A stretch of 64,000 nt of DNA, from the IMG/VR virus record IMGVR_UViG_3300045988_132920; one strand, written 5' to 3'. Of this stretch, positions 34,959 through 63,160 are shown piece after piece. The position numbers were made by a program, and so were the translations under genes. Numbering within the stretch: position 1 is the first letter of the stretch; every line of letters begins with the position of its first letter. The notes beneath the pieces are model-generated. The model saw only the letters and a list, made by a program, of their open reading frames with translations, ran no database searches and was not told the origin of the DNA. This stretch comes from a virus.

Positions 34959-34963
34959 ATTAA

Positions 34964-40503: not shown

Positions 40504-41023
40504 ATGAATTTAGTGTAAATTTTTCAATTACTGGTAATGACCCGTCCATCATTCTGTCAACTACAATAAATGATGCTTTTTCAAATCCCATGACTTTATT
40601 AGTATATTCAATAACTGGTTGAATCTCATAGTCTGAGCATGAAAATAGGTCTATTGATATATAGTTTTTCTCGGTCCAAGAATGCAGTGTGCAGTGACTT
40701 TCGACCCATATAGCAATAGCTGAGACACCACTACCTAGTGTGTTTCGTTGGTTAATGTGTGTCCTAAATGAACTAAGTATTTCAGAGTCATTACACTTAC
40801 CTTCTGCATCAAGTTTTTCTAATAACCTTACAGCCTCACCAGAGAATGGAAATGACATAGCTATTGGTGGGAATACTAAGGTCATGTTAGTTATTTTAGT
40901 TACTTCTTCTAAGTAATCAGATAAAAATTCTCGACTAGACATGTCTTTAACTTTATCTGACGAAAAGACTCCATCTATTATTAAGTGTCGTCCTGCGTAG
41001 TTTGGTGTATCAATAAAATTCAC
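40475..41023 (-). CDS. speH: S-adenosylmethionine decarboxylase proenzyme (pyruvoyl-dependent, SpeH/SpeD class I-like).
   Basis: Motif VESHCTLHSWTE matches the self-cleavage / pyruvoyl site E-S-H...H-T-W-P-E of bacterial class I AdoMetDC. Length is about 180 aa. Confidence 0.65.
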   Translation of the reverse strand: MNFIDTPNYAGRHLIIDGVFSSDKVKDMSSREFLSDYLEEVTKITNMTLVFPPIAMSFPFSGEAVRLLEKLDAEGKCNDSEILSSFRTHINQRNTLGSGVSAIAIWVESHCTLHSWTEKNYISIDLFSCSDYEIQPVIEYTNKVMGFEKASFIVVDRMMDGSLPVIEKFTLNSSTGTLFCAE

Positions 41024-46880: not shown

Positions 46881-48065
46881 ATGAAAGCAATTAAAACAAA
46901 TAAGAATTCAATTTTGTCATGGGCAAAAGAGATTGAAGAACCAGCATTAAAACAATTAATTAATGCTGCTGAGCACCCTTGTATTAACATGCCTGTAGCT
47001 GTGTGTCCAGATGTACATGCAGGATTTGGTGTAACTATTGGCTGTGTACTTCCAGTAACAGATGCACTAATCCCAAATGCTGTAGGTGTGGATATTGGAT
47101 GCTCAATGTCAGCAGCTAAAACAAATATTCGTGTAGAAGATGTATCAACAGAACTATTAAAGAAGATTGTTGGTGGAGCTAAAGGTTACCCAGGAGGTAT
47201 TAGAGCTAATATCCCTGTAGGACAAAGCCACCACAAAACAAAACAAGACCACCATATCTTTGCTAACAGAGATATGTGGAATGACACAATAGTTTGTGCA
47301 CAAGAACTTGAATCAGCACAATACCAGTTAGGAACAATGGGTGGTGGAAATCACTTTATTGAACTACAAGCTGGAGATGATGGTTTCTTGTATTACATGA
47401 TTCACTCAGGCTCACGTAACTTAGGGTACAAAGTGGGGCAGTATTATGATAAACTTGCTAAAGACTTGTGCAGCAAGTACAAGCAAGATAGAGTAGTACA
47501 AGATGACTTAGCTTTCTTACCAAGAGGTACAAAAGAGTTTGATATGTACTTTAAAGAAATGAATTTGTGCTTGCAGTTTGCCAAAGCAAACCATGAACGT
47601 ATGCAAGAAATCTTAGATGGAATTTTGAGACATTATATTCCTGAAATTGCATTTACTAAACGTTGGTATACAAGGCACAACTATGCAGCTATTGAAAACC
47701 ATAAAGGTGTAAACTACTTTATACATAGGAAGGGTGCTATAAGAGCACGTGTGGGTGATGAACAAATTATCCCTGGCTCACAAGGTACAGCTTCTTATAT
47801 AGTAGAAGGCTTAGGTAATGTGGATTCATATTGCTCAGCTTCACATGGTTCAGGTAGAGTAATGTCAAGAAGGCAGGCAACAGCTTCTTTAAATCTTGCA
47901 GAAGAACAAAAGAAGATGGAAGGTATTGTTCATAACATGACTACTAACAAGCAGTTAGATGAAGCACCTTCAGCTTATAAAGACATTGAAGACGTATTAA
48001 AGCAAGAAGCAGACTTAGTGAATAAAATTGTTAAGTTAAAGCCTATTGCTGTAGTGAAGGAGTAA
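46881..48065 (+). CDS. rtcB: RtcB RNA 3'-phosphate / 2',3'-cyclic-phosphate ligase.
   Basis: Near-canonical RtcB blocks: CPDVHAGFG, AVGVDIGCSM, GGNHFIE, HSGSRNLG, HRKGA, IIPGSQG, SASHGSGRVMSR and SAYKDIEDV. These run collinear with E. coli RtcB motifs over the full length. Promoter ttgaca 46819-46824, tattat 46842-46847. Confidence 0.9.
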   Translation: MKAIKTNKNSILSWAKEIEEPALKQLINAAEHPCINMPVAVCPDVHAGFGVTIGCVLPVTDALIPNAVGVDIGCSMSAAKTNIRVEDVSTELLKKIVGGAKGYPGGIRANIPVGQSHHKTKQDHHIFANRDMWNDTIVCAQELESAQYQLGTMGGGNHFIELQAGDDGFLYYMIHSGSRNLGYKVGQYYDKLAKDLCSKYKQDRVVQDDLAFLPRGTKEFDMYFKEMNLCLQFAKANHERMQEILDGILRHYIPEIAFTKRWYTRHNYAAIENHKGVNYFIHRKGAIRARVGDEQIIPGSQGTASYIVEGLGNVDSYCSASHGSGRVMSRRQATASLNLAEEQKKMEGIVHNMTTNKQLDEAPSAYKDIEDVLKQEADLVNKIVKLKPIAVVKE

Positions 48066-50289: not shown

Positions 50290-50372
50290 TAATAAAATCT
50301 CCTTTTGTCAGAGAATCTAATAATATGGTAGCTGTATAAGCTGATAAGAGTAGGCTGTTGGTGGTTGCAAAT

Positions 50373-50463
50373 TGGTAAGAACAGAGTTATACAGGTTAAA
50401 AAGGTAGAGTAGATTAATAGTTGTAGAGGTTGGTAAGAACAGAGTTATACAGGTTAAAAAGGT
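50373..50463. repeat. Two perfect 34-bp direct repeats (ttggtaagaacagagttatacaggttaaaaaggt) separated by 23 bp.
   Basis: Copies at 50373-50406 and 50430-50463 read directly. They lie in the upstream region of the minus-strand T5orf172-like gene, in an ORF-free stretch. Confidence 0.85.
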
Positions 50464-50711
50464 GCTAACGGCTGAAACCCGCTGTGTGACTGGGTTATAG
50501 AAAGGTCGAAGTTTTCAGAAAATCCTAAAATTTCTGTGAGCCTCTAAAGACACACCCGACCACACCTGCTTTTCACCCTTCTATCGCCCTTTTTTCACTT
50601 CAAAAAATTGTTACAATAATTTACATAAAACATGCTTGCATGCTATTGACATTTAACTTTTTTAGTGTAATAATAGTATTATAAAGTTAAGCAAACGAAA
50701 GGGAAACGACC

Positions 50712-51185
50712 ATGACAACTTATGAAACACTTTACAACGCAATCGCAAAAGCGAACGAAAAACAAGGACTAAACGCAATGGACATCGCAAGGGGTACGAA
50801 GGCAACAGGCTCAAAAAATGGCATTAAGTACCTAAACATCGGGGGCGTAGTAGTTGCTTACTCTAGCGACAAGCAAGCATTACAAGCTAACAGAAACAGG
50901 GCATGCTCAATCGCTAGACAACAAACGGCAAGCATGAGAAACGGCATGTCTTATGGAGTACCTAACTGTGTAAGCCAAGTATATAGCGACTATTCAGCAT
51001 TTGTAGGAATTGAAAAAATCGGATTTGCAAGCCAAGCATACAAACTAGCCTACATCAGAAAATACTTGCAAGGTGAATTTTACTTCTTAATCGGTCAAGG
51101 CATAAGCAATAACTTCCACGAGATAATAAACGGAGATTACAACATAGTAAACAGTTTAGAAGATAAAAGGGATATATGGGGCTAA
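50712..51185 (+). CDS. Early-region hypothetical protein, 157 aa.
   Basis: Conserved leader aaacgaaagggaaacgaccATG. Promoter ttgaca 50646-50651. Confidence 0.6.
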   Translation: MTTYETLYNAIAKANEKQGLNAMDIARGTKATGSKNGIKYLNIGGVVVAYSSDKQALQANRNRACSIARQQTASMRNGMSYGVPNCVSQVYSDYSAFVGIEKIGFASQAYKLAYIRKYLQGEFYFLIGQGISNNFHEIINGDYNIVNSLEDKRDIWG

Positions 51186-51250
51186 AACCCCATTCCCTAC
51201 TGGGTTTTAACAATAAGTGATACATACAATTAAGTAAAGGAGAATTAAAA

Positions 51251-51616
51251 ATGAAACAAGCACAAGTAAACTACTCAACAATTACAGAAACTATCATTGA
51301 TGATGTAAAGCAAGCTATTATTGACATACAGGCAGGTGAAGATGATTGTTTTATGAAGTTCTTAAACAATGGCATGGTTGGTTATAGCCTTGCATGTTCA
51401 GGTGGTTATTCAATCATTTACGATTGTACAAATGACAGGCTAGTAGTAGCATGGTTGTTAAAGGTTAGAGGGTCAAACATTCATGATTGTATTGACGGGT
51501 CATGGGGTCAAGGTTATTATTTCGATAATAATGGGGGTAGTTACCTTAATGAACGATATGACATTGACAAGGTTGTAGATTTATTTGTCCGTAAAGCACT
51601 AGGGATTAGGGATTAA
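51251..51616 (+). CDS. Early-region hypothetical protein, 121 aa.
   Basis: RBS aaggagaattaaaaATG. Terminator hairpins 51611-51676 downstream. Confidence 0.6.
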   Translation: MKQAQVNYSTITETIIDDVKQAIIDIQAGEDDCFMKFLNNGMVGYSLACSGGYSIIYDCTNDRLVVAWLLKVRGSNIHDCIDGSWGQGYYFDNNGGSYLNERYDIDKVVDLFVRKALGIRD

Positions 51617-51954
51617 GCCTAATCCCTTTAGGGATTTAAGATTAAAGACTGATTGATGTTTCAATCAGTCTTTTAGTATTGATATAAAATATTCAATCTG
51701 GGGCTACTAGCAGGCTATTTAAGACAGGTTACAGTTAATGAATGATAGTTTATACAGTTTGATAGGTTGGAGGGCTTAACGGGGCTTGTAGCTCGTGTAA
51801 GATTGGCATGCTAAAATTGCATACTATTGTAACACAAGAATTTTATTTGTCAAGGGTTTATTAAGTTTTGTAACAAATTAAATACAGGGGTTGACATTTA
51901 AAATTTTTAGTGCTATTATATAAGAGTAGCAGATAAACGAAAGGGAATTAAAAA

Positions 51955-52254
51955 ATGTTAGAACACACTTTGAACATCGGACTTAATGACATGGTAACAC
52001 GCAAGCAAGAAATTGAAACCGACAGAGCTATTGAAATTATCGGTGCAGTGTTAGGGGATTGCACAGTAAAACAAGGTGCAACAGGCTTTTATGCTCACGA
52101 AGACGGCTCAAAAGTAGTTGAAAAATCACTTGAAGTAGTTGTATATGGTGGAAGACAAAAGCAAGTAATCGCTAAAGTTAGGGAGCTAAAAGTTCTTTTA
52201 AATCAAGAGAGCATAGTTTATAATTGCGAGCAGTCAAAAGCAAAATTTATCTAG
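51955..52254 (+). CDS. Early-region hypothetical protein, 99 aa.
   Basis: Cassette promoter (ttgaca 51891-51896, tattat 51914-51919) and leader aaacgaaagggaattaaaaaATG. Confidence 0.6.
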   Translation: MLEHTLNIGLNDMVTRKQEIETDRAIEIIGAVLGDCTVKQGATGFYAHEDGSKVVEKSLEVVVYGGRQKQVIAKVRELKVLLNQESIVYNCEQSKAKFI

Positions 52255-52330
52255 TTTAATGGGGGGATAACTCTCCCCCCCTATAAACTAATCTTAATTA
52301 AGTATGTAGTAAGTAGTAAAGGATAATAAA

Positions 52331-52576
52331 ATGAGTAAAGATGAGAGAATTATTTTAATGTTGTTTGTAGTAGCAGGATTTATTGGCATGTTGTTCTTAC
52401 CTATGTTAGGTATGCTTTATATATGGGACGAGATAGCACGCATGGCAGATAAGGCATGGCAAGTATGCGTTTTATATAAATGTTTATCAATCCTATGGTG
52501 CATGGCTACTTATGCAATTCAGTTTGGCATGGGCAAGATGATATTCAAGCATATTATTTGCAAGCAACCATTTTAA
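52331..52576 (+). CDS. Early-region small membrane protein, 81 aa.
   Basis: RBS aaaggataataaaATG. Two hydrophobic helices. Terminator 52598-52628. Confidence 0.55.
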   Translation: MSKDERIILMLFVVAGFIGMLFLPMLGMLYIWDEIARMADKAWQVCVLYKCLSILWCMATYAIQFGMGKMIFKHIICKQPF

Positions 52577-52597
52577 AATGATTTTAAAATAAGGATT

Positions 52598-52628
52598 TGA
52601 GCCATGACTTTACGGAGTCATGGCTTTT
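52598..52628 (+). terminator. Rho-independent terminator.
   Basis: agccatgact-ttacgg-agtcatggct then tttcg. Confidence 0.65.
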
Positions 52629-52746
52629 CGATTGGTTGTAGTATAGTGTGAGGTGCAAGCCGTGAAACGGCTATAACGCAGTTATAGCTTGTGTTTCAGG
52701 CATATAATAGATATAGGTTAAGTTTTGTAACATACTGAAAATTTTT

Positions 52747-52774
52747 ATTGACAAAATTTGATTTTGTGATACAA
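52747..52774 (+). promoter_or_regulatory. Family-B promoter (TTGACA-N16-tgaTACAATagtat), plus strand.
   Basis: ttgaca 52747-52752, tacaat 52769-52774. Further plus-strand members at 55726, 56695, 57383, 59085, 60967 and 61008. Confidence 0.6.
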
Positions 52775-52879
52775 TAGTATACACTATTATGGATTGTAAC
52801 AATATGTTAATATACTATTGACATATAAGTTTATTAGTGATATAATCATCATGTGGTACATAAATGAAAGGAAAGAATT

Positions 52880-53299
52880 ATGGATTTTAAACAAGGTATA
52901 TGCCCGTTATGTGGTAGTGAAAATTTGGATTACGGGGTATTACAACCTGATGACGATTGTATTTATTACCCGTGTGAATGTGGGGATTGTGGAGCTACTT
53001 TTAAGGAATATTACAGCCTTGATTTTTCAGGTCAAGAAAATATATCTGCTGGAGATACTGGGAATGTAGTTGAAAGATACACACTTGAAAGACAGGTTAA
53101 AGAGGGATTTTTCGCTGATTTATCATTATATAAAAAGATTGCTACCTTTGAAACTTACGAGGAAGCATGGGAAGCATACGAAAAGCAAACAGTAACAGGG
53201 GATTATGCTATCGTTAGAGCTAACTATAAAGTGGAAAATGATGAACTCACAGAGATAGTACAGACAAGGAAAGCTGAAACACTTGTAAACCATAAATAA
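52880..53299 (+). CDS. Early-region zinc-ribbon protein, 139 aa.
   Basis: CPLCGSEN...CECGDCGA four-Cys motif at the N-terminus. Tandem promoters at 52747 and 52817. Terminator 53301-53337. Confidence 0.6.
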   Translation: MDFKQGICPLCGSENLDYGVLQPDDDCIYYPCECGDCGATFKEYYSLDFSGQENISAGDTGNVVERYTLERQVKEGFFADLSLYKKIATFETYEEAWEAYEKQTVTGDYAIVRANYKVENDELTEIVQTRKAETLVNHK

Positions 53300-53300
53300 A

Positions 53301-53337
53301 GGGATAAGCATGCCAGTAGTTGGCATGCTTATTTTTA
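53301..53337. terminator. Rho-independent terminator, hairpin symmetric with flanking A/T runs.
   Basis: gggataagcatgcca-gtagt-tggcatgcttatttttaac. Confidence 0.7.
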
Positions 53338-53345
53338 ACATGCGT

Positions 53346-53378
53346 ATACTATTGTAACACAAAAAACTCATTTGTCAA
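53346..53378 (-). promoter_or_regulatory. Family-B promoter on the minus strand, antisense and directly downstream of terminator 53301-53337.
   Basis: The minus strand reads ttgacaaatgagttttttgtgttacaatagtat. The same arrangement recurs at 51823, 54136, 54866, 55787, 58088 and 59134. Confidence 0.5.
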
Positions 53379-53414
53379 GTGTTTATTAAGAAGTGTAACA
53401 AATTAAATAAAGGG

Positions 53415-53443
53415 GTTGACATATAAGTTTATTAGTTGTATAA
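53415..53443 (+). promoter_or_regulatory. Family-A cassette promoter (gggTTGACAt-N17-TATAAT with TGn extended -10).
   Basis: ttgaca 53415-53420, tataat 53438-53443. Equivalent copies at 51891, 52817, 54213, 54939, 55859, 56774, 57446, 58165, 59207, 61719, 63097 and 63949. Confidence 0.65.
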
Positions 53444-53474
53444 TATTCATGTAAATAAACGAAAGGAATTAAAC

Positions 53475-54095
53475 ATGAAAGTAAATGACTTTATTATGGC
53501 AGTACTAGACCATTCAAAAACAGACCCAAGTATATTAAACAAGGAATTGCAGTTATATAATTCAGCCGAACGCAAATCCTATGCAACAGACTCAATTCCA
53601 ACTTTTGTTGACCTATCAGATGACAAGTATCTTGATATAGTGTTTAACAATCAAGGGAACATTGCAGATATAAGACAGGAACTGGAGGGGAAAGCCTTAA
53701 ATCCTGTGCAAGTATTAAATGGGTGGAGTGGCTTATACACTATTGTCAAGAATGCACTTGCTAAAATTGAAACACCTAATGAAACAGAGATGTGCTTAAT
53801 TCAACAATACTACTATAATAAGCTCATTGAGAATTTACAAGGTATAAAAGCCATTGACAAATCAGTTGAACTTGTTGAGGATGAGGGGCTTGAGTTTATG
53901 CGACACATTGATGTTGAAATTAACTTCAACAACGGTGGTGGGCATGCAGGAATACGAGCTTTTATTACAATAACAAAGGATAACAAGAACGAAATTCAAG
54001 CCTATGTGCAAGATGAGTTTTACGGAACTATTCCACAAGAGGATAATTATTTTGAAGATATAAACATTAACAACCTTATCGCTTATCTACAATAA
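53475..54095 (+). CDS. Early-region hypothetical protein, about 206 aa.
   Basis: Start reassigned to ATG 53475 behind leader aaacgaaaggaattaaacATG. Cassette promoter ttgaca 53415-53420, tataat 53438-53443. Terminator 54097-54134. Confidence 0.6.
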   Translation: MKVNDFIMAVLDHSKTDPSILNKELQLYNSAERKSYATDSIPTFVDLSDDKYLDIVFNNQGNIADIRQELEGKALNPVQVLNGWSGLYTIVKNALAKIETPNETEMCLIQQYYYNKLIENLQGIKAIDKSVELVEDEGLEFMRHIDVEINFNNGGGHAGIRAFITITKDNKNEIQAYVQDEFYGTIPQEDNYFEDININNLIAYLQ

Positions 54096-54096
54096 A

Positions 54097-54134
54097 GGGA
54101 ACAGGCATGCACACTAGCATGCCTGTTCTTTTGT
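54097..54134 (+). terminator. Rho-independent terminator.
   Basis: gggaacaggcatgc-acact-agcatgcctgttcttttg. Confidence 0.7.
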
Positions 54135-54272
54135 TTAATGAAATACTATTGTACCACAAAAAACTCATTTGTCAAGTGTTTGTTAAGAAATGTAAATTTA
54201 TAAAACAATGTATTGACATTTAAGTTTATTAGTGTTATTATATAAGAGTAGATAAACGAAAGGAACACAGAT

Positions 54273-54461
54273 ATGGCAACAAATTTTGAAATGTTTTTAG
54301 ACACAGTAAACGGATTAAAGTACTCACAAGGCTTTTATAGCAGACTCGCAAATCAAATTGCTGAAATGTCAGAAGAAGACTTAAACAGAGCTAAAGAAGA
54401 AATCAATGCACTACCTCAATTCAATGACCAACTTGATGTAATATTGTGGTTAGAACAATAG
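54273..54461 (+). CDS. Early-region small protein, 62 aa.
   Basis: Cassette promoter (ttgaca 54213-54218) and leader gataaacgaaaggaacacagatATG. Confidence 0.55.
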   Translation: MATNFEMFLDTVNGLKYSQGFYSRLANQIAEMSEEDLNRAKEEINALPQFNDQLDVILWLEQ

Positions 54462-54472
54462 GAGAGTTACAG

Positions 54473-54805
54473 ATGTTAAACGACTTAGACTTAATGGTGA
54501 AACTATTTGACAATAAGTTAAATGAATATCATACAGACAGCCTTGTGAAATTCCGCAAGGCAGTTGAAGACAAAGTTCTTGATACAGAAACAAAGCAAGC
54601 CTTAATGCAGTTAAGCACAGAAGACCTTGCAAATCTCATGCGTATTGCAGAAAATGCACACATTGACGAGATGAACGGCAGAGAAACGCAATGGGATACA
54701 GTAGCAGAGCATGCCAAGTCATCAATAGCACAGTTTGCACTTAACAACCTATCGGTTGAAGAATTGCAAGAATGGACTGATATATGTAATGCAATGGCAT
54801 GCTAA
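54473..54805 (+). CDS. Early-region hypothetical protein, about 110 aa.
   Basis: Start reassigned to ATG 54473 after RBS taggagag. Terminator 54834-54860. Confidence 0.55.
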   Translation: MLNDLDLMVKLFDNKLNEYHTDSLVKFRKAVEDKVLDTETKQALMQLSTEDLANLMRIAENAHIDEMNGRETQWDTVAEHAKSSIAQFALNNLSVEELQEWTDICNAMAC

Positions 54806-55001
54806 AACAGAGTTAATTTATACGGTGATTACTAGCACACATTTGTGTGCTTTTTCTTTAGTAGTGAAATACTATTGTAACATAAAAAACTCATTTGTCA
54901 AGTGTTTGTTAAGCAATGTAAATTTATTAAACATACTATTGACATTAAAGTTTTTTAGTTGTATAATGATTATGTGATAGATAAACGAAAGGGAACAAGA
55001 C

Positions 55002-55622
55002 ATGGAAAGACCAGTAAAGATTGAAATTAACAAGGACGAAGAAAAAAGGATTTACATAAATGATGACATCTTCATTGATATATCAAACAATGGGGGCAGA
55101 GAGTATGACATCTATGTATTTGACCAAATGAAATGTGTAGCAACACAGAGCATGGATATAATAGGCATAAGGGAAGACCAATACACCTATGACAAACGAA
55201 CAGTAAAAGAACTCAACAGAGAGCATATACACAGGGCAGAAGTAACAAACATATTAAGCATACTTGATAAGCACACTAAATCCTTACAGGATAAGTTTGC
55301 TAAACTATGTGCAACTAAAAGACCTTTAACTGCTTCTGAAATAATGTTTACTGAAAAAGAAGTTCAAGAACTATTTAAAGGTGAGGTTACATACATTGAG
55401 CTATGCCCTAACACTGATGACAGTATAAGTGTTTTTGTAGTTTTCGAGGGTAAGGTAGGTGTATTTTATGAAATGAATAAAATACACCTACCTTACAAGG
55501 GTTTTCAACATAAACGAACTATTGAGTACTACACAGTTTATAATTCCTTTAGTGATGAAACTACCCTTGAACTAAACGAAAGAACATTGCGAGCTATTGA
55601 CAGAGATGAGTGCCGACTGTAA
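55002..55622 (+). CDS. Early-region hypothetical protein, 206 aa.
   Basis: Cassette promoter (ttgaca 54939-54944, tataat 54962-54967) and leader aaacgaaagggaacaagacATG. Hairpin 55610-55633 at the stop. Confidence 0.6.
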   Translation: MERPVKIEINKDEEKRIYINDDIFIDISNNGGREYDIYVFDQMKCVATQSMDIIGIREDQYTYDKRTVKELNREHIHRAEVTNILSILDKHTKSLQDKFAKLCATKRPLTASEIMFTEKEVQELFKGEVTYIELCPNTDDSISVFVVFEGKVGVFYEMNKIHLPYKGFQHKRTIEYYTVYNSFSDETTLELNERTLRAIDRDECRL

Positions 55623-55919
55623 CCAGTCGGCACAACCCCACTTCACCCCTATAACCCCCATTTTACAAGGGTTAGAGGGGTATTTTAGGTAGGTATTAAG
55701 TTTTGTAACAATCTGAAAATTTTTATTGACAAATAACTTTTTTGTGGTACAATAGTATTCACCATGCCCGTGATTGAGCATGAAAATATACTATTGTAAC
55801 ACAGGTTAGATTGATTGTCAAGTACATGTTAAGAATTGTAACAATTAAATACATGGGGTTGACATAAGAAATCTTTAGTTGTATAATAATTATGTGATAC
55901 AAAACGAAAGGGAATACAA

Positions 55920-56114
55920 ATGAGAAAAGAAGATTTACAGGAACTCCTTAACAAATGTGGTGAGATTGAGCTTGATTTAACCTTATCACAGGAAGATGAT
56001 GAAATTATTTTAACAATAGGGTCAGAAAATTCATCTGGAGAGGAATACATCATAAATAACACAGATGACATTAAAAACATTATTGAAGATTACATAGCAG
56101 ATTTATATGAATAA
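55920..56114 (+). CDS. Early-region small acidic protein, 64 aa.
   Basis: Cassette promoter (ttgaca 55859-55864, tataat 55882-55887) and leader aaaacgaaagggaatacaaATG. Confidence 0.55.
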   Translation: MRKEDLQELLNKCGEIELDLTLSQEDDEIILTIGSENSSGEEYIINNTDDIKNIIEDYIADLYE

Positions 56115-56132
56115 ACGAAAGGGAACATGAAC

Positions 56133-56684
56133 ATGAAACAACACACAATTTGGAAAGATACTTCAATGTGGACTGTAAAGAACATTGACGAGGCAAAAGC
56201 AAGTGCTAGAGCAGAACTAATAGACAACGGATTTGAAAATCCAACAGACGAGCAAATAAGCGAATATATCGAACAGGATAACGAATTTGAATATCAAGCA
56301 ACATACAACAAGTTCAAACAAGTACAAACTAACGGCAAAATTGTTCTTGTTGCAGATAATGCAACATGGAGAGGTAGGAGAGTAGGCTTAAAATATTTAG
56401 GACACAATTTAGGTAATATTTTACAGTCATTCTTCAACGGCTACCCTGCTTTTACTTATGATAGGTTTAACATCAGAGGTGAGGAATGCCACCATGACCA
56501 ACGATTTTGCAGCGATAGCAGACCTAATCAGTATTTATTCAGAGAGCTTAAGGAAGAATACAGTGATATGGACGATTATAGGCTATGTGAGTTGCTTGTG
56601 CAAGATAATGAGATTAACAAACGCAATTTAGCAAAATATACAAAATCATTAAGACCATATTTAAAGGAAGTATGGGGGATTTAA
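56133..56684 (+). CDS. Early-region hypothetical protein, about 183 aa.
   Basis: Leader aaacgaaagggaacatgaacATG. The second ATG is chosen for its RBS spacing. Confidence 0.55.
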   Translation: MKQHTIWKDTSMWTVKNIDEAKASARAELIDNGFENPTDEQISEYIEQDNEFEYQATYNKFKQVQTNGKIVLVADNATWRGRRVGLKYLGHNLGNILQSFFNGYPAFTYDRFNIRGEECHHDQRFCSDSRPNQYLFRELKEEYSDMDDYRLCELLVQDNEINKRNLAKYTKSLRPYLKEVWGI

Positions 56685-56901
56685 TCCCTCATACTTGACA
56701 AATAATTATTTTATGATACAATAGTATGCTTGTCATGTAATTGTAAAGATATGTTACAACAATAAATAAGTATTTGACATTTTAATTTGTTAGTGCTATC
56801 ATATACATGTATTAAGGATAAAGAAAAGCACTTGACAAATAATTACTTTTCACCTATACTTAATCATGTGATACATAAGACAAAAGAAAGGGAACAACAT
56901 C

Positions 56902-57309
56902 ATGGCAATCAAGGTAAAAGACGAAGTAAGAAAAGGCATAAGCTACACTAAAAGGGAAATTGTAGACCTAGAAGAACTTATTGCTGAATGTGATGAAGCA
57001 ATAGGCTACATGTCAGAAACTACTTTTACAAGACACCGTAACGCACACAGAATTAACAAGGTAATTGAGCAGAAGAAGTCAGCACAACAAGAGCTATCAC
57101 TTCAAAAGTTAAGCCTTAAAAACTATGCTGAATTTTACGGTCTTAAAAAGTCAGATGTTGAAGCAGTTGCACCAGCGACAGATGAGCAACTGGAAAAGGA
57201 CTGGCAAGCAGACTTAAGGGAAGCAAATAAACCATATAACCCTAACGACCTAATAAAACTTATGGAACAGTTTGACAGGGAACACCCTCAACAATTTGAA
57301 ATAGTATAA
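56902..57309 (+). CDS. Early-region hypothetical protein, 135 aa.
   Basis: Three promoters upstream (56695, 56774, 56833). RBS aaagaaagggaacaacatcATG. Confidence 0.6.
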   Translation: MAIKVKDEVRKGISYTKREIVDLEELIAECDEAIGYMSETTFTRHRNAHRINKVIEQKKSAQQELSLQKLSLKNYAEFYGLKKSDVEAVAPATDEQLEKDWQADLREANKPYNPNDLIKLMEQFDREHPQQFEIV

Positions 57310-57501
57310 CTCTTGTTCGGAAACATAAATTAGGCACAGGTTCACAGAGCTTGTGCCTATTGCCTTTTAGATGTAAGTATTGACAAATAATTATTTTATG
57401 GTACAATAGTATCTTTTGCATGCCTGTATAATATCGAGGGTTGACAAACAACTTTTTTAGTGTTATAATATACATGTGATACCAAACGAAAGGGAACATA
57501 T

Positions 57502-57693
57502 ATGACTGTAAGAATACTAAACACATGCCCGATTTGTGGCTGTTCAAAATTCAAGTATCAAGATGATGGATTTATGTGCCTTGATTGTGGTGAGTTCTCA
57601 TACATAGAGGACATGACCTCAACAGCTTTAGAAGTGCATGAGTTATCTGAACATGATTTGATTGACAGGTCATTAGTAAAGGGGGAACAATAA
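57502..57693 (+). CDS. Early-region zinc-ribbon mini-protein, 63 aa.
   Basis: CPICGCSKF...CLDCGEF. Leader aaacgaaagggaacatatATG. Confidence 0.55.
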   Translation: MTVRILNTCPICGCSKFKYQDDGFMCLDCGEFSYIEDMTSTALEVHELSEHDLIDRSLVKGEQ

Positions 57694-58073
57694 TGAGTAT
57701 AAAAGAACAATTACAAATAACGATTGTACAAAAGATGATTGTACGAAGTCCTTTTGCAAAAGGTAACTGTAAGGAATACATACTTGATTTAACATACAAT
57801 AATAAGACAATGCGTTATAACTTTTATGATAGTGTGTATAATTATGAGAACAACCAAGAGCTTAATAAGTTTGAAACACTTTATGCAATCCTTACAGACC
57901 GTAGAGCATACAGATATTCAAGAAGTGTAGAGGACTTTGCAAAAGAGTTTGGTTACACAGATGAAGAAAAGGCAAGGAAAGTATATAGTGCTTGTAAGAA
58001 GATAGCACTTGACCTTGAAAGACTATTCACAGAGGAAGAACTAGAACAGCTTGAGCAAGAAGTAGAAGTGTAG
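57693..58073 (+). CDS. Early-region hypothetical protein, 126 aa.
   Basis: TAATG overlap with the upstream gene. Terminator 58069-58090. Confidence 0.55.
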   Translation: MSIKEQLQITIVQKMIVRSPFAKGNCKEYILDLTYNNKTMRYNFYDSVYNYENNQELNKFETLYAILTDRRAYRYSRSVEDFAKEFGYTDEEKARKVYSACKKIALDLERLFTEEELEQLEQEVEV

Positions 58074-58090
58074 GGAATTCCCTACACTTT
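58069..58090 (+). terminator. Rho-independent terminator.
   Basis: Palindrome tgtagggaattccctaca followed by tttt. Confidence 0.6.
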
Positions 58091-58229
58091 TGAAACATAC
58101 TATTGTAACACAAAAAACTCATTTGTCAAGAGTATGTTAAGAAATATTAAATGTTGAAACAAGGGGTTGACAGGTAAGTTTATTAGTGCTATAATAAGGG
58201 AGTGATAGATAACGAAAGGGAATAAACAA

Positions 58230-58895
58230 ATGAAAAACTTAAACAACATGACAACAGAGGAAATTCAAGACACTATTTGGGAAGTACTTGAAAGTAAATC
58301 AGGTGAGGAAGTCTTAAGAGCTTTTACTAACTGGCATGGAACTCAACTTCTTACAGGGGAATTCCTAGAAGCATTGTCAGATGACGGAATGACAGATGAG
58401 GAATACGGATATTTTGATGATGAAGAAGATGAAGAAATCGAAGAAGACGATGATGACAGTGATGAGGACACTAAAGAATTCCTTGATACTTTAACTGATG
58501 ATGAGCTTGAAGAAGTACATTCAAAAGTAGTTAAGTTATATGAAACACTTGCAAAGTTAGCTACTGATAGTTCAGCAAAGGAAACACAACACGGGCAAGT
58601 AGACCATGTAAGATGTGCTTTTAAAGCTCTTGTTAGCTTGTACAATGGTGAATACACAGATATGCTTAGTGAAAACCACTACATGGACATAAGACTAAAC
58701 ATAGCACCTATACATGATGTGCTAATTACATTAACTGCACTACCAAATAAAAGACCTTATATAAATGTTAATCAATGGGTGGACTACAAAGACGGAACTG
58801 CTATATACTTAGGTGAAGTTGAAAGGCAATGCAAGTTAAGACTTGGTAAAGAATTCCCTGATAAAATAGGTTATTGGGGAATAGGGCAGAACTAA
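58230..58895 (+). CDS. Early-region protein with an extended acidic D/E tract, 221 aa.
   Basis: Cassette promoter plus leader gataacgaaagggaataaacaaATG. Tract DEEYGYFDDEEDEEIEEDDDDSDEDTKEF. Confidence 0.6.
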   Translation: MKNLNNMTTEEIQDTIWEVLESKSGEEVLRAFTNWHGTQLLTGEFLEALSDDGMTDEEYGYFDDEEDEEIEEDDDDSDEDTKEFLDTLTDDELEEVHSKVVKLYETLAKLATDSSAKETQHGQVDHVRCAFKALVSLYNGEYTDMLSENHYMDIRLNIAPIHDVLITLTALPNKRPYINVNQWVDYKDGTAIYLGEVERQCKLRLGKEFPDKIGYWGIGQN

Positions 58896-59266
58896 ATTCC
58901 CTATCGTATCACAAAAGAAGCTACTCTTGCAGATGATTGCAAGGGTAGCTTTAGTATGTATGGTAGCCTACACCCAACCACTCGCACGCCGCTAAATGGC
59001 TATAACCCTTGCTACACAATGGTTTGAGATAGATTGATTGAGGGTGTTAAGTTTTGTGAAATTCTGAAAATTTTTACTTGACATTTTTGTGATTTATGAT
59101 ACAATAGTATACCTCACGCAGTAAAATACTATTGTATCACATGACACACATTTTGTCAACCCTTACATTGTAAATTTTTATTAACTTTATTAAATCGTAG
59201 GGGTTGACATTAAACTTTTTTAGTGCTATAATAAGGGAGTGATAGATAACGAAAGGGAACAAACAA

Positions 59267-59785
59267 ATGACAAGAAAAACTTTAGATGTAGCATTAGACT
59301 TTGTAAATCAAGAACAGGATTATGGTAAAGGGTCATCAGTACACTACAATGGGCATTTATTTTACAGTTACGCAACAGTAGTTGCACAGATTGTAAAGGG
59401 TAAAGACAATGGAACATATTGTCTATTGAGCAATAACAATATGAGCATGATTACTTCAAAACATTTGGGAAACCTTGTTTCAGCTTGTATTAGAACAAAC
59501 ACACCTATTATCCGTGTAGCTTGCGACTGGTACGACCGTTATGAAGTTACACCAACAGAGTATGCTAATAGGCAAATAAAAGACCTTAATTACTATGTAG
59601 AGAATAAGGACATTTTAACTAAAAAGCCTAACAGAACAGAGTTTATCAGTATTTATGTAAATACACAGGAACTAATTGAAACATTAGAACTTGATATTAA
59701 AATTCCTCAAGAAATAACAGACTTATATAACAACTTGTTTAATGTAGAGTTTGTGAAATCACTAAGAAAACGCAAGGTAGCCTAG
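59267..59785 (+). CDS. Early-region hypothetical protein, 172 aa.
   Basis: Cassette promoter and leader gataacgaaagggaacaaacaaATG. Confidence 0.6.
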   Translation: MTRKTLDVALDFVNQEQDYGKGSSVHYNGHLFYSYATVVAQIVKGKDNGTYCLLSNNNMSMITSKHLGNLVSACIRTNTPIIRVACDWYDRYEVTPTEYANRQIKDLNYYVENKDILTKKPNRTEFISIYVNTQELIETLELDIKIPQEITDLYNNLFNVEFVKSLRKRKVA

Positions 59786-59841
59786 AAATAGGCTACTATG
59801 CCAACGAGTAGTAAATACACATAATTGTAAAGGATAATAAA

Positions 59842-60702
59842 ATGAAGGTATTAGTAAAACAAGAATTAACTAACAGAGATTTTCAAAAGGAACTATTTGA
59901 AAAGAACGGCATAATAACACTTGCACATAACACAGATAACTTAGAATTATTTGTGCCAACATCTTGGGTAAGTGGTGAAACATTAACACACTTATCAATG
60001 AGTGGTAGAGCCTTTTCAGAGATTAAGTACTCAAAAGATGATAATAAAATTCAAGTAGACAGGCATAACCACTCATGCTCAACACCACATGATTTTGAGT
60101 TTGAACTTAATAAGATTACAACATGGATTGGTCAGACAATTCTACCAGTATATAAAGATTTATCAATAGGTAAGTTGTACTCGCTATATGTAATGTACAC
60201 TATTAACAGAGCTTTGTTTGATAACACTAGAACACAGGATGAGGGTTTGATTGAACTAGCACATAAGATTGTACATGCCAGTAACTCAATTTCAGTTGAA
60301 AAAGACATTAACCAAAACGCAGATACAGCAGAACTTGAAAAAGAAGTAGAACAGCACTTCAATAAGATTGCAGAATGTATTTGCTACACCTTAAGAGAAG
60401 ATAGAATTCTAACTGGTAAAGGTAATCCTTTTGTAAACTTCTTCTCAAGATTGTTTCAATCAGATTTCTTTGAAAATTATTCAGAATACACTTACTTATG
60501 TAAGAAACAAGAAATGATTAAAGACATGATTAAGTTTGATTTGATGTTTAGACCTAAGGCAGAAACTACACAGGAAATTATAGACACCTATGCAGACACT
60601 ATTAGGAATACATCATTTAATAAGTTTGAATTTGATTATGTTAAGTTATGCCTAGCAGAGTATATACATAGTACTCATTACATAATGGAGTATAACTTAT
60701 AA
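59842..60702 (+). CDS. Early-region hypothetical protein, 286 aa.
   Basis: RBS aaaggataataaaATG. Terminator 60750-60777. Confidence 0.6.
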   Translation: MKVLVKQELTNRDFQKELFEKNGIITLAHNTDNLELFVPTSWVSGETLTHLSMSGRAFSEIKYSKDDNKIQVDRHNHSCSTPHDFEFELNKITTWIGQTILPVYKDLSIGKLYSLYVMYTINRALFDNTRTQDEGLIELAHKIVHASNSISVEKDINQNADTAELEKEVEQHFNKIAECICYTLREDRILTGKGNPFVNFFSRLFQSDFFENYSEYTYLCKKQEMIKDMIKFDLMFRPKAETTQEIIDTYADTIRNTSFNKFEFDYVKLCLAEYIHSTHYIMEYNL

Positions 60703-60749
60703 AGATTTAATATCTAGTGTTTTGTTCGTGGTTTGTTCATAACAACCTA

Positions 60750-60777
60750 ACCCTCTTAATGAGGGTTTTTCTTTTGT
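60750..60777 (+). terminator. Rho-independent terminator.
   Basis: aaccctc-ttaat-gagggtt then tttcttttg. Confidence 0.65.
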
Positions 60778-61772
60778 AAGAACACAGGAAGCCCCAGTTG
60801 ATTATCCTAAAATCATGATGTGTTGACACATTTAGATTTACATAAAATCGGGTAGGGCTACAATGCAGTAATAGCTTGAAAATTGATTTTTGATGTTTAG
60901 AAAATCCCTAATAGGACTTTTTCAAAATGGGTATGGTAGAAAATTGCTTCAAGTACAGGGTTGACAAAATGATTGTTATGTGGTACAATAGTATGCTACA
61001 CAAGGGATTGACATAATTTGGCTCGTGTGGTACAATAGTATATTTTGCATGGGCATGCCTGTAAACCCTCTCGTAGTCGGTATGCGACAGATTGGGTGAA
61101 TGAGCATTTTGAGCCTACTAGGACACCATTAAAAGCCATTATTGGTCATCAGATGTGTTGTGTGTTGATTGAGCATGTCGACCTCGTCAGAGCCGTTGCA
61201 ATGGCTTTAGGTTTGATAAACAGGGAGAATAGTTGAGCAGAGAGAGTTTGAGAGTGCCGACCCGACCGAAACTACTACAACTACTGGGCGATAGCGAGTG
61301 AGGTTGAGCAGAACGGTGCGTGGGGCAGACGGGGCAAGGCTGTGTTTTAGACACACTCACATTCCCCAAAATTCCCAAACATTTCCCGACCCAAACGCAC
61401 CTCACACCCTCAAACAAAACTTCAAACCCTGTTTCAACTTCCCACAAATTATATTATCTAATGAAGCGGAAACGCAGACACCCCAACACATACCACCGAC
61501 ACAGACGGCTGAAACCCAGACAAAATAGGCGTTCATGGCACTTTCGCACTGTAAACAGTGTTTTATATGCCTAAAAAGCCCTCGTAGTCTACACGACAGC
61601 CTATTCCTAACATCTATTTCATACACTCTCACATATACAAGCCTAAAAACTGGCTATACTGTGTTCTTTTGTAATCCTTTAATACACATACTATACAGAC
61701 CCTCTCATGTAGTAGGGTTGACAAATTACTTTTTTAGTGTTATCATATAAGAGTAAACGAAAGAGGTAACAA

Positions 61773-61970
61773 ATGTATGGTAAAGACATTAACGGTATTG
61801 ACATCAAACTAAATGACATAGTACAAAGTATCAAAAAGAATACTGACTGGAATGACCAGTTAAACAATGACCTTATGACACAAGTTGTAGACAACGAATT
61901 TCAAATTGACAATGACTACATCTATGAAGTAATAGGGAACACTATTGACAATCCCAAACTTACATACTAA
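61773..61970 (+). CDS. Early-region small protein, 65 aa.
   Basis: Cassette promoter (gggttgacaaattacttttttagtgttatcat) and leader gtaaacgaaagaggtaacaaATG. Confidence 0.5.
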   Translation: MYGKDINGIDIKLNDIVQSIKKNTDWNDQLNNDLMTQVVDNEFQIDNDYIYEVIGNTIDNPKLTY

Positions 61971-62794: not shown

Positions 62795-63025
62795 ATGAAC
62801 GATTATAGATTGAACTTAATACATAAGACAGATAATAAAACATGTGCTAGGACGTTATGTCAAGTAGCATGGTTTAATGCAGTATCAGCTTTTGACACAC
62901 TTAGAACAGCTTATTTACAAGGGTTATTCCCTAGTACTGTTGTAGGAGTTGTATTAGTACACAATAGAACTAACAAGGTTATTAAAGATTGTTCTAAGCT
63001 ACACAATAAACTTATTGACTATTAA
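62795..63025 (+). CDS. Early-region small protein, 76 aa.
   Basis: RBS atgaggtagtaaATG. Confidence 0.45.
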   Translation: MNDYRLNLIHKTDNKTCARTLCQVAWFNAVSAFDTLRTAYLQGLFPSTVVGVVLVHNRTNKVIKDCSKLHNKLIDY

Positions 63026-63160
63026 ACATTCATTCATATATTATTTCTAAAAACTTTCATTCTTATGTCAATCCTCACCTCCTAATATCAAAAGGGTTGA
63101 CATTTCTTTTTGTTAGTGTTATAATAACTATGTAAGCAAACAACGAAAGAGGTAACAATA

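What the first reader, a model, noticed from the sequence alone, without database searches (positions are those of the whole stretch)
60780..61760. Compositionally anomalous GC- and CA-rich region of about 0.9 kb with no convincing ORF, driven by tandem consensus promoters
Between terminator 60750-60777 and the cassette promoter at 61719 the sequence shifts to markedly higher GC. It has long purine-poor tracts on the plus strand (cccaaaattcccaaacatttcccgacccaaacgcacctcacaccctcaaacaaaac...). Only short ORFs overlap it, in several frames. Two tandem family-B promoters (60967 and 61008) fire into it. It may be a highly expressed non-coding RNA, such as a sponge or decoy or the remnant of a captured foreign element. 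It could also be a cis-acting site such as a packaging or terminal-repeat boundary.
Basis: seen in the sequence. Interest (0 to 1): 0.6.

Follow-up and report, generated by a model that had tools for sequence, protein, structure and literature searches.

The report
Border of a phage terminal repeat
This gene-free, GC-rich stretch most likely marks the inner edge of an 11-kb block present at about twice the depth of its flanks (probably a terminal repeat of a new gut phage) and carries short DNA motifs shared with the block's other edge and with a different phage, so it looks more like a DNA signal for making genome ends than like a new RNA gene.

Summary
Window 60703-61772 has no gene. It holds the highest GC of 70.7 kb (0.53 against a mean of 0.35). 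It switches abruptly from a G-rich arm to the most G-poor tract present (61352-61429: C 35, G 2 of 78). Two consensus promoters lie upstream at 60961-60989 and 61008-61036.

The non-coding RNA reading gained no support. Rfam gave nothing, folding z-scores were about 0, substitutions in two strain variants do not preserve structure, and there are no homologues.

What I found instead is that metagenome assemblies treat window ~50.45-61.5 kb as a double-copy block:
- Exact proteins inside it occur in 39-41 assemblies, against 16-22 for proteins on either side.
- SPAdes coverage is 6.2 inside and 3.0-3.1 outside in one sample.
- At least 14 contigs start or end inside 61389-61961.
- Only one flank context exists on each side.

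This is the signature of a collapsed long direct terminal repeat full of short early genes.

Both borders are gene-free and run from G-rich repeats to a C-rich arm, and both carry ACGGCTGAAACCC. A different phage (L066/L067) has a 1.1-kb gene-free region with the same design, the same GGCTGAAACCCAG, and a 16-mer AAACCCTCTCGTAGTC that is also in the finding region, but no promoter.

Best reading: a cis-acting terminal-repeat border, analogous in position to the T5 and phage K borders but not a member of either family. Exact ends are unmapped.

The parts
50470..61517 (.). Block of about 11 kb that behaves as double-copy DNA (candidate long direct terminal repeat). It holds about 17 short orphan genes, all on the + strand, behind consensus promoters. 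The edges are known only to a few hundred nt.
   Evidence: Exact proteins inside occur in 39 and 41 assemblies; flanking proteins occur in 21, 18, 21, 22 and 16. SPAdes coverage in ERZ2663243 is 6.22 inside against 3.00 and 3.09 outside. In ERZ2663042 it is 5.81 against 3.63 and 2.11. Only one flank context is seen on each side.
50290..50711 (.). Left border region, gene-free. Two perfect 34-nt direct repeats (50372-50405 and 50430-50463) lie in a G-rich arm (skew +0.72). Then comes motif M1, ACGGCTGAAACCC (50468-50480), then a C-rich arm (skew -0.57), then the promoter at 50646-50674.
   Evidence: Flank contigs end at 50211, 50398 and 50477. Block contigs start at 50307 and about 50410.
60749..60777 (+). 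Intrinsic terminator of the upstream 286-aa gene
   Evidence: 7-bp stem plus TTTTCTTTT.
60837..61036 (+). Promoter cluster: weak P1 at 60837-60864, consensus P2 at 60961-60989 and consensus P3 at 61008-61036 (TGTGGTACAATAGTAT type). 60782-60999 is identical in window and L008; L073 has one substitution there.
61063..61078 (+). Motif M2, copy a: AAACCCTCTCGTAGTC, about 20 nt downstream of the expected P3 start site
   Evidence: Exact 16-mer shared with L067 15902-15917. P = 0.003 in local-composition shuffles.
61097..61345 (+). G-rich arm (G 78, C 44 of 246). (T/A)TGAGCA repeats occur at about 61100, 61169, 61233 and 61304, spaced 64-71 nt. G clusters (GGTGCGTGGGGCAGACGGGGCAAGG) lie at its end.
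61189..61208 (+). Hairpin AGAGCCGUUGCAAUGGCUUU followed by a U-rich tail. It may act as an attenuator.
   Evidence: Strain changes 61195 G>A and 61205 C>U keep the pairs; 61198 G>A falls in the loop.
61352..61500 (+). C/A-rich, G-poor arm. It includes the only four-tract C3+ (G-quadruplex type) motif in the 70.7 kb, at 61364-61392. Its sequence is not conserved: L073 is about 40% diverged at 61362-61445 and has deletions, but it stays G-poor.
61505..61519 (+). Motif M1: ACGGCTGAAACCCAG. The same 13-mer occurs at the left border. GGCTGAAACCCAG also occurs in the gene-free element of phage L066/L067. It is invariant in three strains.
61546..61570 (+). Weak terminator-like hairpin GCACTGTAAACAGTGT followed by TTTTATAT
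   Evidence: It is part of the only sub-region with a fold z-score below -2 (61440-61720, z = -2.3).
61577..61589 (+). Motif M2, copy b: GCCCTCGTAGTC, 70 nt after M1. The M1-then-M2 order and spacing match L067, where the spacing is 79 nt.
61389..61961 (.). Zone where independent metagenome contigs break. Contigs start at 61389, 61501, 61546, 61678 (two), 61680, 61694 (two) and 61938. Contigs end at 61416, 61559, 61591, 61666 and 61961.
   Evidence: The end positions are computed from contig lengths.
61718..61746 (+). Cassette promoter of the first gene after the block (65 aa, 61773-61970). It belongs to the same promoter family as 50646-50674.
   Evidence: In L073 this promoter is duplicated around an inserted 141-aa gene.

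Best explanation
The gene-free stretch 60703-61772 is the inner (right-hand) border region of an ~11-kb long direct terminal repeat, at window ~50.47 to ~61.4-61.5 kb. The phage is a large, novel, tRNA-rich virulent phage from human gut metagenomes.

The region is a composite cis-acting DNA element, in this order: early promoters, a G-rich arm with spaced TGAGCA-type repeats, an abrupt switch to a G-poor C/A-rich arm, then the conserved motifs M1 (GGCTGAAACCCAG) and M2 (CCCTC(TC)GTAGTC).

Inferred mechanism: the repeats and motifs are bound and cut or nicked by the packaging machinery. This generates fixed genome ends and duplicates the repeat, as at other long-repeat borders. The element may also mark where stepwise DNA entry pauses, as in T5.

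The tandem promoters simply read across it into the unique early genes. The resulting RNA is probably a by-product or at most an accessory.

What is shown: the composition, the absence of a gene, the promoters, the double-copy behaviour of the block, the clustering of contig breaks, and the motif conservation.

What is inferred: that the block is a terminal repeat, that the motifs are the cut or recognition sites, and any role in DNA entry.
For: 1. Double-copy block. Exact-protein look-ups give 39 assemblies (157-aa, 50712) and 41 (286-aa, 59842) inside. Outside they give 21 (RtcB), 18 (T5orf172), 21 (65-aa), 22 (194-aa) and 16 (131-aa). The 286-aa and 282-aa proteins have the same length but counts of 41 and 18, so protein size does not explain the difference.

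2. Step in coverage, not a gradient. In ERZ2663243 the block contig has coverage 6.22. The adjacent right-flank contig has 3.00, and a contig about 30 kb away has 3.09. ERZ2663042 gives 3.63 / 5.81 / 2.11.

3. Block-sized contigs. Nineteen assemblies yield 10-20 kb contigs that cover the block plus short, variable overhangs. Flank genes sit mostly on 1-8 kb contigs.

4. No alternative flank was seen among about 47 contigs. A dispersed repeat or a shared module would give alternative flanks.

5. At least 14 contig ends fall in 61389-61961.

6. Both borders are gene-free, run from G-rich repeats to a C-rich arm, and share the 13-mer ACGGCTGAAACCC, 11,037 bp apart. P = 0.011.

7. A different phage carries the same design. 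In L066/L067 only a 63-aa gene is alignable to the window. It has a 1.1-kb gene-free region with skew +0.88 turning to -0.77, the same GGCTGAAACCCAG, and the exact 16-mer AAACCCTCTCGTAGTC, in the same M1-then-M2 order. Both contigs end just after it. No promoter precedes it, although that phage has 12 consensus promoters in 16 kb.

8. The block's content (short orphan genes behind strong host-type promoters) matches what long terminal repeats carry in T5. Precedents: in T5 the end of the left repeat lies inside a 1662-bp non-coding region (10.1101/866236). K-like phages have repeats found by doubled read depth and bordered by 12-bp repeats (PMC6022877).
Against: No reads were available. Copy number rests on contig k-mer coverage in two samples and on counts of assemblies.

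The exact ends are not mapped. Contig ends bound the right edge only to about 60.7-61.7 kb, and two samples break about 100 nt to the left of M1.

A depth step alone should not break a de Bruijn assembly, so an extra cause (nick, end bias, low coverage) must be assumed.

Most samples come from one study, PRJNA217052.

M1 and M2 are short, and only two phage lineages carry them. No hits were found in IMG/VR, and hits in GTDB genomes were at chance level.

No terminase or small-terminase gene was linked to the site.

The strong tandem promoters and the local GC excess are not explained by a pure DNA-site model.
Confidence: 0.5

Rival explanations
1. A highly expressed early non-coding RNA of about 170-700 nt is made from the tandem promoters and is itself the functional product. 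It could be structured, or it could be an unstructured C-rich sponge or decoy for a host RNA-binding factor or for Shine-Dalgarno-like G-rich sequences.
For: Two consensus promoters plus a weaker one aim into 680 nt without a gene. In this phage GC-rich islands otherwise correspond to tRNA genes. The hairpin at 61189-61208 keeps its pairing through two strain substitutions. 61440-61720 folds better than shuffles, z = -2.3. UCCC/CCC motifs are enriched, 15 CCC against 2.8 expected.
Against: No Rfam match at E<=10. Fold z-scores are about 0 for the whole region, for the 5' part and for the G/C core, on both strands. The arms are no more complementary than arm-shuffled controls. The 33 substitutions against L008 break predicted pairs at the random rate, and there is no compensatory pair. 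The C-rich tract is replaced or deleted in L073. The related element in L066/L067 has no promoter. There is no clear terminator.
Confidence: 0.2
2. A replication origin. The direct repeats act as iterons, and transcription from the tandem promoters forms a G-rich RNA/DNA hybrid that primes or opens the origin, as at ColE1, T7 phi1.1A/B or T4 oriF (comparison from my own knowledge).
For: Strong tandem promoters are followed by a transcript that is G-rich for about 250 nt with G clusters. TGAGCA-type repeats are spaced 64-71 nt apart. Direct repeats also occur in the other two elements. The strand-skew switch is sharp.
Against: No DnaA boxes in the region, and no AT-rich unwinding element next to the repeats. 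The L066/L067 element has no promoter. Coverage falls in a step to the same 3.0-3.1 both adjacent to the block and 30 kb away, rather than in an origin-centred gradient. The element occurs twice, 11 kb apart. Cumulative GC skew does not turn at 61 kb.
Confidence: 0.12
3. A transcriptional punctuation element. The untranslated, extremely C>G tract acts as a Rho-loading (rut) site, followed by pause hairpins, which ends or attenuates transcription from the block before the next operon. Alternatively it is a long regulatory leader of the 65-aa operon.
For: 61352-61429 has C 35 / G 2 of 78, the most extreme on the + strand. C tracts are spaced about 10-11 nt apart. The RNA is untranslated. Hairpins lie at 61546-61561. 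G-poverty is kept in L073 although the sequence is not. Lesser C>G tracts sit at other operon ends, 50551-50628 and 63009-63086.
Against: It does not explain the G-rich half, the conserved motifs, the double-copy block edge or the contig breaks. The downstream operon has its own consensus promoter. The host and its Rho status are unknown.
Confidence: 0.08
4. An inert remnant: a decayed gene or a captured piece of foreign, higher-GC DNA with no function.
For: The composition is foreign to a 35% GC genome. There is no ORF. Part of the region (61142-61260 and, in L073, 61362-61445) evolves fast.
Against: No similarity to anything in phages, plasmids or E. coli, and no Pfam signal in any frame. 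It is retained in three strains at 95% identity, with invariant M1 and flanks. The same motifs and design recur at the other border and in another phage.
Confidence: 0.05

Closest known systems
Bacteriophage T5 left terminal repeat and its untranslated 'injection stop signal' (iss) region
   Same: T5 has a repeat of about 10 kb (10,139 bp; here ~11 kb) filled with short early genes behind strong host-type promoters. The inner end of the T5 repeat lies inside a large gene-free region: 1662 bp with 97 stop codons, overrunning the repeat end by 270 bp (10.1101/866236). The phage here also carries a large tRNA set and a T5orf172-domain gene.
   Different: No DnaA boxes. No array of long inverted repeats or palindromes. 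No detectable dmp/A1/A2 homologues. No sequence similarity to any deposited phage. Instead of the T5 features there is a G-rich to C-rich strand switch and the motifs M1 and M2. Two-step injection is untested.
Kayvirus (Staphylococcus phage K-like) long terminal repeats
   Same: The repeats are 7.6-8.5 kb, are recognised by roughly doubled read depth, and are separated from unique DNA by a short conserved 12-bp sequence at both borders (PMC6022877). Here a 13-bp sequence sits at both borders.
   Different: The border repeats here are direct, not inverted, and have a different sequence. There is no protein or DNA similarity to these phages.
T7 concatemer-junction processing (promoter phiOR, pause site CJ, pacB) and packaging sites with small-terminase binding repeats (lambda cosB, SPP1 pacL/pacR). 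Cited from my own knowledge, not tested here.
   Same: A promoter reads toward the repeat border, and repeats lie next to a presumed cut site.
   Different: This is purely an analogy. No terminase link, no pause mapping, and a host-type rather than phage-type promoter.
Large GC-rich phage-borne non-coding RNAs (ROOL, GOLLD) and other Rfam families
   Same: A GC-rich island of several hundred nt in an AT-rich phage that also carries many tRNAs.
   Different: No covariance-model match even at E<=10. No fold stability and no covariation.

Membership tests
Long direct terminal repeat (border region) | A block at about 2x read depth with step-like edges | tested here: met
   Tested by proxies only. 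Contig k-mer coverage is 6.22 against 3.00 and 3.09 in ERZ2663243, and 5.81 against 3.63 and 2.11 in ERZ2663042. Assembly counts are 39-41 inside and 16-22 outside. Raw reads were not available.
Long direct terminal repeat (border region) | Only one sequence context on each side of the block, because the second copy abuts physical ends | tested here: met
   All contigs shown for block proteins carry T5orf172 on the left and the 65-aa gene on the right, or in L073 an inserted cassette followed by the 65-aa gene.
Long direct terminal repeat (border region) | Read starts and ends pile up at two fixed positions; virion DNA carries the block at both ends | not testable with these tools
   This needs read mapping (PhageTerm-type analysis) or long reads.
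Long direct terminal repeat (border region) | The repeat holds short early or host-takeover genes with strong host-type promoters | tested here: met
   About 17 short orphan ORFs and more than 20 promoter matches at 11-12 of 12 in 50-62 kb.
T5 iss region | A large untranslated region straddling the inner end of the repeat | tested here: met
   1070 nt with no gene at the right edge of the block (and the contig data).
T5 iss region | A conserved set of about 8 DnaA boxes | tested here: not met
   TTATCCACA with up to 1 mismatch gives no site in 60.7-61.8 kb or 50.29-50.71 kb. The window total of 18 is below the chance value of 25.
T5 iss region | A dense array of long inverted repeats, palindromes and DRD/DRE repeats | tested here: not met
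   Only short imperfect inverted repeats of 10-16 nt, and no tandem array.
T5 iss region | Pre-early genes dmp, A1 and A2 in the repeat | tested here: not met
   No convincing PHROG family and no precomputed Pfam family for the block proteins (the best PHROG match is E = 1.5e-4, to an N-terminal domain of unknown function). tblastn against phages finds nothing.
T5 iss region | Two-step DNA injection that stops at the site | not testable with these tools
   This needs a blender or shear experiment on infected cells.
Kayvirus LTR border | 12-bp inverted repeats TAAGTACCTGGG / CCCAGGTACTTA at both borders | tested here: not met
   The borders here carry a direct 13-mer, ACGGCTGAAACCC, which is a different sequence and orientation.
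Known structured RNA family (Rfam 15) | A match to a covariance model | tested here: not met
   There is nothing inside the GC-rich region at E<=10. The only hits, at E = 2.8 and 4.8, overlap the upstream terminator. L066 and L073 are also negative.
Structured non-coding RNA (generic) | A fold more stable than shuffles, and covariation | tested here: not met
   z = -0.19, -0.06, -0.32 and -0.30. Only 61440-61720 reaches z = -2.3. There are no compensatory pairs, and substitutions break pairs at the random rate. The test is weak: only three near-identical strains.
Rho-dependent terminator | An untranslated C>G tract of at least 78 nt followed by pause hairpins | tested here: met
   C 35 / G 2 at 61352-61429; hairpin at 61546-61561.
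Rho-dependent terminator | Rho-dependent 3' ends | not testable with these tools
   The host is unknown and there is no transcript data.
Iteron or DnaA-type replication origin | Iterons plus DnaA boxes plus an AT-rich unwinding element | tested here: inconclusive
   Spaced repeats are present. DnaA boxes are absent. No AT-rich element was identified. The coverage pattern is step-like.

The most novel reading that the evidence does not exclude
The 'G-rich repeats, then GGCTGAAACCC, then C-rich arm' module is a previously undescribed terminus-generating or DNA-entry signal shared by uncharacterised gut phage lineages. If the ends lie at the strand-skew switches, both genome ends would carry the G-rich strand running 5' to 3' toward the end, a telomere-like polarity. 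The tandem promoters would then provide transcription-coupled processing or pull-in of the genome. Alternatively, the transcript itself is a new class of abundant early phage RNA.
Probability: 0.2. Interest if true: 0.65.

Novelty: new variant of a known kind. Interest (0 to 1): 0.4.

Why it matters
If the reading is right, the window comes from a deep-branching, uncultured gut phage. It has 25 tRNAs and RtcB, an Rnl2-type ligase and a CCA-adding enzyme, and its nearest helicase relatives are at or below 31% identity. It would be built like T5, SPO1 or phage K, with a long terminal repeat of host-takeover genes.

The repeat borders carry a simple, recognisable DNA signature. That signature could be used to find genome ends and early-gene modules in metagenomic phage contigs. 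It could correct 'circular' assemblies. It would also give a defined cis element to test for terminase recognition, nicking or stepwise DNA entry.

There is a practical caution too: a GC-rich, promoter-fed, gene-free island in an AT-rich phage is not automatically an RNA gene.

Tried and rejected
Known RNA families. Rfam at gathering threshold on the window, then E<=10 on 60600-61900, gave only two chance hits on the upstream terminator. L066 and L073 were also negative. ARAGORN finds no tRNA or tmRNA in the region.

Similarity searches:
- blastn 'distant' of the region against phages, plasmids and E. coli: none.
- megablast of 20 kb of neighbouring sequence: none.
- tblastn of 15 concatenated neighbouring proteins against phages: none.

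Coding potential. Alternative genetic codes are rejected because all three stop types occur in all frames. Pfam on 8 ORFs found nothing.

Long G/C hairpin. Rejected: the arm-preserving shuffle gave z = +0.2 and +0.9.

G-quadruplex or phased C tracts as the functional core. Rejected: it is the only such motif in 70.7 kb, but it is destroyed in strain L073.

Conservation as evidence of constraint. The identical runs of 218 and 142 nt against L008 are not exceptional, because runs up to 320 nt occur in genes.

Searches for relatives that failed:
- The upstream 286-aa protein has no homologue beyond a 98% variant.
- A concatenated 2117-aa query returned nothing and wasted one search.
- The search for related loci in IMG/VR with both flanking proteins found none.
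- Core 25-mer and promoter patterns in IMG/VR found none.
- A promoter and leader pattern gave 3 unrelated contigs.
- The core 20-mer in JGI metagenomes gave one chance hit in a 61% GC contig.
- The same 20-mer in GTDB genomes gave none.
- The M1+M2 gapped pattern gave 0 hits in IMG/VR and 19 chance-level hits in high-GC genomes.

Antisense or target search against 70.7 kb of the phage found nothing beyond the two motifs.

DnaA boxes: none.
Full report
CONTEXT

The window is a low-GC (about 35%) phage sequence. It has 25 tRNA genes at 30.1-38.6 kb. RNA-repair genes are present: a CCA-adding enzyme, an Rnl2-type ligase and RtcB. There is a RecD2-like helicase whose best phage relatives are at or below 31% identity.

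From about 50.3 kb onward there is a long array of short orphan genes on the + strand, each behind a near-consensus TTGACA-17-TATAAT promoter. Near-identical copies occur in many human gut metagenome assemblies, namely ENA PRJNA217052 and others, plus Logan. Nothing similar is in the deposited phage, plasmid or E. coli collections, or in IMG/VR.

- Between the terminator at 60749-60777 and the promoter at 61718-61746 there is no gene. The longest ORF is 86 aa. Every frame has 13-23 stops of all three types, and Pfam finds nothing.
- GC climbs to 0.42-0.55. The highest 200-nt GC of the 70.7 kb examined is here, and all other peaks are tRNA DNA or one gene.
- The region has two halves. The G-rich arm (61097-61345) has skew up to +0.38. 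The arm that follows is the most G-poor DNA present: 6.7% G at 61345-61494, and C 35 / G 2 at 61352-61429.
- 'Purine-poor' is inaccurate. The tract is C/A-rich and G-poor.
- Two 11/12 promoters with TG extension (60961-60989 and 61008-61036), plus a weaker one (60837-60864), point into it.

THE RNA READING WAS TESTED AND GAINED NO SUPPORT

- No Rfam family matches, even at E<=10.
- Folding energies equal those of dinucleotide shuffles for the whole 678 nt on both strands, for the 5' part and for the G/C core (z = -0.19, -0.06, -0.30, -0.32).
- The apparent long G-arm/C-arm hairpin is no better than arm-wise shuffles.
- Only 61440-61720 reaches z = -2.3.

Two strain variants were recovered: L008 at about 95% and L073 at about 95.6%.
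- No pair shows a compensatory change.
- The 33 substitutions against L008 break predicted pairs as often as randomly placed ones do.
- One small hairpin (61189-61208) does keep its pairs through two changes.
- Runs of identity are not longer than those inside genes.

With only three close strains this is a weak test, so an RNA product is not excluded.

THE DECISIVE LEAD CAME FROM HOW ASSEMBLIES TREAT THE LOCUS

Exact-protein look-ups give very different numbers of assemblies on either side of two gene-free regions:

| Position | Protein | Assemblies |
|---|---|---|
| Left flank | RtcB | 21 |
| Left flank | T5orf172 (282 aa) | 18 |
| Block | 157-aa, 50712 | 39 |
| Block | 286-aa, 59842 | 41 |
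| Right flank | 65-aa, 61773 | 21 |
| Right flank | 194-aa | 22 |
| Right flank | 131-aa | 16 |

Nineteen assemblies give 10-20 kb contigs that span the block plus short overhangs of variable length. Flank genes sit mostly on 1-8 kb contigs.

SPAdes k-mer coverage in the same sample:

| Sample | Left or distant contig | Block contig | Right-flank contig |
|---|---|---|---|
| ERZ2663243 | 3.09 (helicase, about 30 kb away) | 6.22 (50307-61666) | 3.00 (61678-66910) |
| ERZ2663042 | 3.63 (left flank) | 5.81 | 2.11 |

The pattern is a step, not a gradient.

Contigs start at 61389, 61501, 61546, 61678 (two), 61680, 61694 (two) and 61938. Contigs end at 61416, 61559, 61591, 61666 and 61961. On the left, flank contigs end at up to 50477, and block contigs start as late as 50307-50434.

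No contig joins the block to any other flank. Doubled depth, step edges and a single context on each side together are the classical signature of a collapsed long direct terminal repeat. This is the same criterion used for phage K relatives (PMC6022877). The finding region is its right-hand border.

THE TWO BORDERS RESEMBLE EACH OTHER

The left border (50290-50711) is also gene-free. It runs in this order:
- two perfect 34-nt direct repeats in a G-rich arm (skew +0.72);
- ACGGCTGAAACCC at 50468-50480;
- a C-rich arm (skew -0.57);
- a promoter of the same family as 61718-61746.

The same 13-mer sits at 61505-61517, 11,037 bp away. Shuffles that keep local composition give P = 0.011.

A SECOND, DIFFERENT PHAGE HAS THE SAME MODULE

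Homologues of the 65-aa gene led to contigs L066 and L067, in which only that gene aligns to the window. About 4.7 kb downstream of it lies a 1.1-kb gene-free region, in this order:
- G-rich direct repeats (skew +0.88);
- a GC peak of 0.51;
- GGGGCTGAAACCCAG;
- 79 nt further on in L067, AAACCCTCTCGTAGTC;
- a C-rich arm (skew -0.77).

Both contigs end shortly after it.

The 13-mer equals window 61507-61519. The 16-mer equals window 61063-61078 (P = 0.003), and a shorter copy lies at 61577-61589, 70 nt after M1.

That phage has 12 consensus promoters in 16 kb but none in front of this element. So what is conserved is the DNA module, not its transcription.

In strain L073 the C-rich tract 61362-61445 is largely rewritten and partly deleted. 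This destroys the only G-quadruplex-type motif in the 70.7 kb. M1 and its surroundings stay invariant.

INTERPRETATION

The region is best read as the border of a terminal repeat: a composite cis-acting DNA site. Its repeats and motifs are recognised, and cut or nicked, when fixed genome ends are made. It might also act as a pause point for stepwise DNA entry.

It is positionally analogous to T5, where the end of the 10,139-bp left repeat lies within a 1662-bp untranslated region containing the injection stop signal (10.1101/866236). It is also analogous to K-like phages, whose repeat borders carry a 12-bp sequence.

It is not a member of either family:
- no DnaA boxes;
- no palindrome array;
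- no dmp/A1/A2-like proteins;
- a different border sequence, in direct orientation.

The tandem promoters would read from the repeat into the unique early genes. The extreme C>G tract would also make a good Rho-loading site, and this is kept as a minor rival.

UNCERTAINTIES

- No reads could be mapped.
- The edges are bounded only to a few hundred nt. The candidates are the skew switch at about 61350-61390 and M1 at 61505-61517.
- A depth step alone does not explain why assemblies break just there, so a nick or end bias may be involved.
- Most samples come from one study.
- The motifs are short and are seen in only two lineages.

Overall I put about 0.7 on 'edge of a double-copy block' and about 0.5 on the full cis-acting border explanation. 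I put 0.2 on a functional RNA, and the rest on an origin, a terminator or leader, or an inert remnant.

Noticed in passing
window 51.8-59.2 kb, for example 55726-55821, 59078-59159, 58102-58129, 54148-54175, 53351-53378: Most intergenic cassettes of the early-gene block contain a pair of convergent consensus promoters (TTGACA-16/17-TGnTACAATAGTAT on both strands). Their -10 boxes face each other 25-40 nt apart, forming an imperfect palindrome, yet all genes are on the + strand. Several minus-strand promoters are followed at once by a minus-strand hairpin (54128-54099, 53332-53304, 58089-58066). These could be tiny antisense RNAs, or operator-like palindromes.
   Followed up: partly
window 30625-31076, 32051-32280, 38319-38547: Within the tRNA cluster there are GC-rich (0.45-0.49) stretches of 200-450 nt with no tRNA and no Rfam match. 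They could be further small RNA genes or processed spacers.
   Followed up: no
window 27028-28392, 35109-36140, 46881-48065, 30159-38618: The phage carries a full tRNA maintenance kit next to its 25 tRNAs: a CCA-adding enzyme with an HD domain, a T4 Rnl2-type RNA ligase and RtcB. This suggests defence against host tRNA-cleaving systems.
   Followed up: partly
L073 7465-8022 (equivalent to window 61714-61742): One strain has an extra 141-aa gene inserted immediately after the non-coding region. The insert is flanked by a duplication of the cassette promoter, so promoter-plus-gene units move as cassettes in this phage group.
   Followed up: partly
window 50372-50463; L008 1-40: The left border has two perfect 34-nt direct repeats 58 nt apart. 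Strain L008 lacks part of this repeat unit, so repeat copy number varies between strains.
   Followed up: partly
window 61166-61177 and 55771-55782; also 59030-59045 and 55806-55818: TGATTGAGCATG occurs both in the G-rich arm and in the loop between a convergent promoter pair. GATTGATTGAG-like strings recur in other cassettes and in the G-rich arm of L066. This may be a binding motif for a phage or host regulator.
   Followed up: no
L066 16393-16411: This metagenome contig ends in the Nextera transposase adapter sequence CTGTCTCTTATACACATC, about 490 nt after its M2 motif. Untrimmed adapter at a contig end may mean that many fragments stop near there.
   Followed up: no
window 40475-41023 (-) and 42334-43836 (+): The phage encodes an AdoMet-decarboxylase-family protein (precomputed Pfam hit on the matching contig) and a 500-aa SPFH/Band 7 protein, both unusual cargo for a phage.
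   Followed up: no
L065 (IMGVR_UViG_3300038488_000019) 391-421: This is a 9-kb, 45% GC viral contig with 7 consensus promoters on one strand. One promoter is 90% identical over 31 nt to the window's cassette promoters, yet there is no protein similarity. It may have the same early-region architecture in a distant phage.
   Followed up: partly
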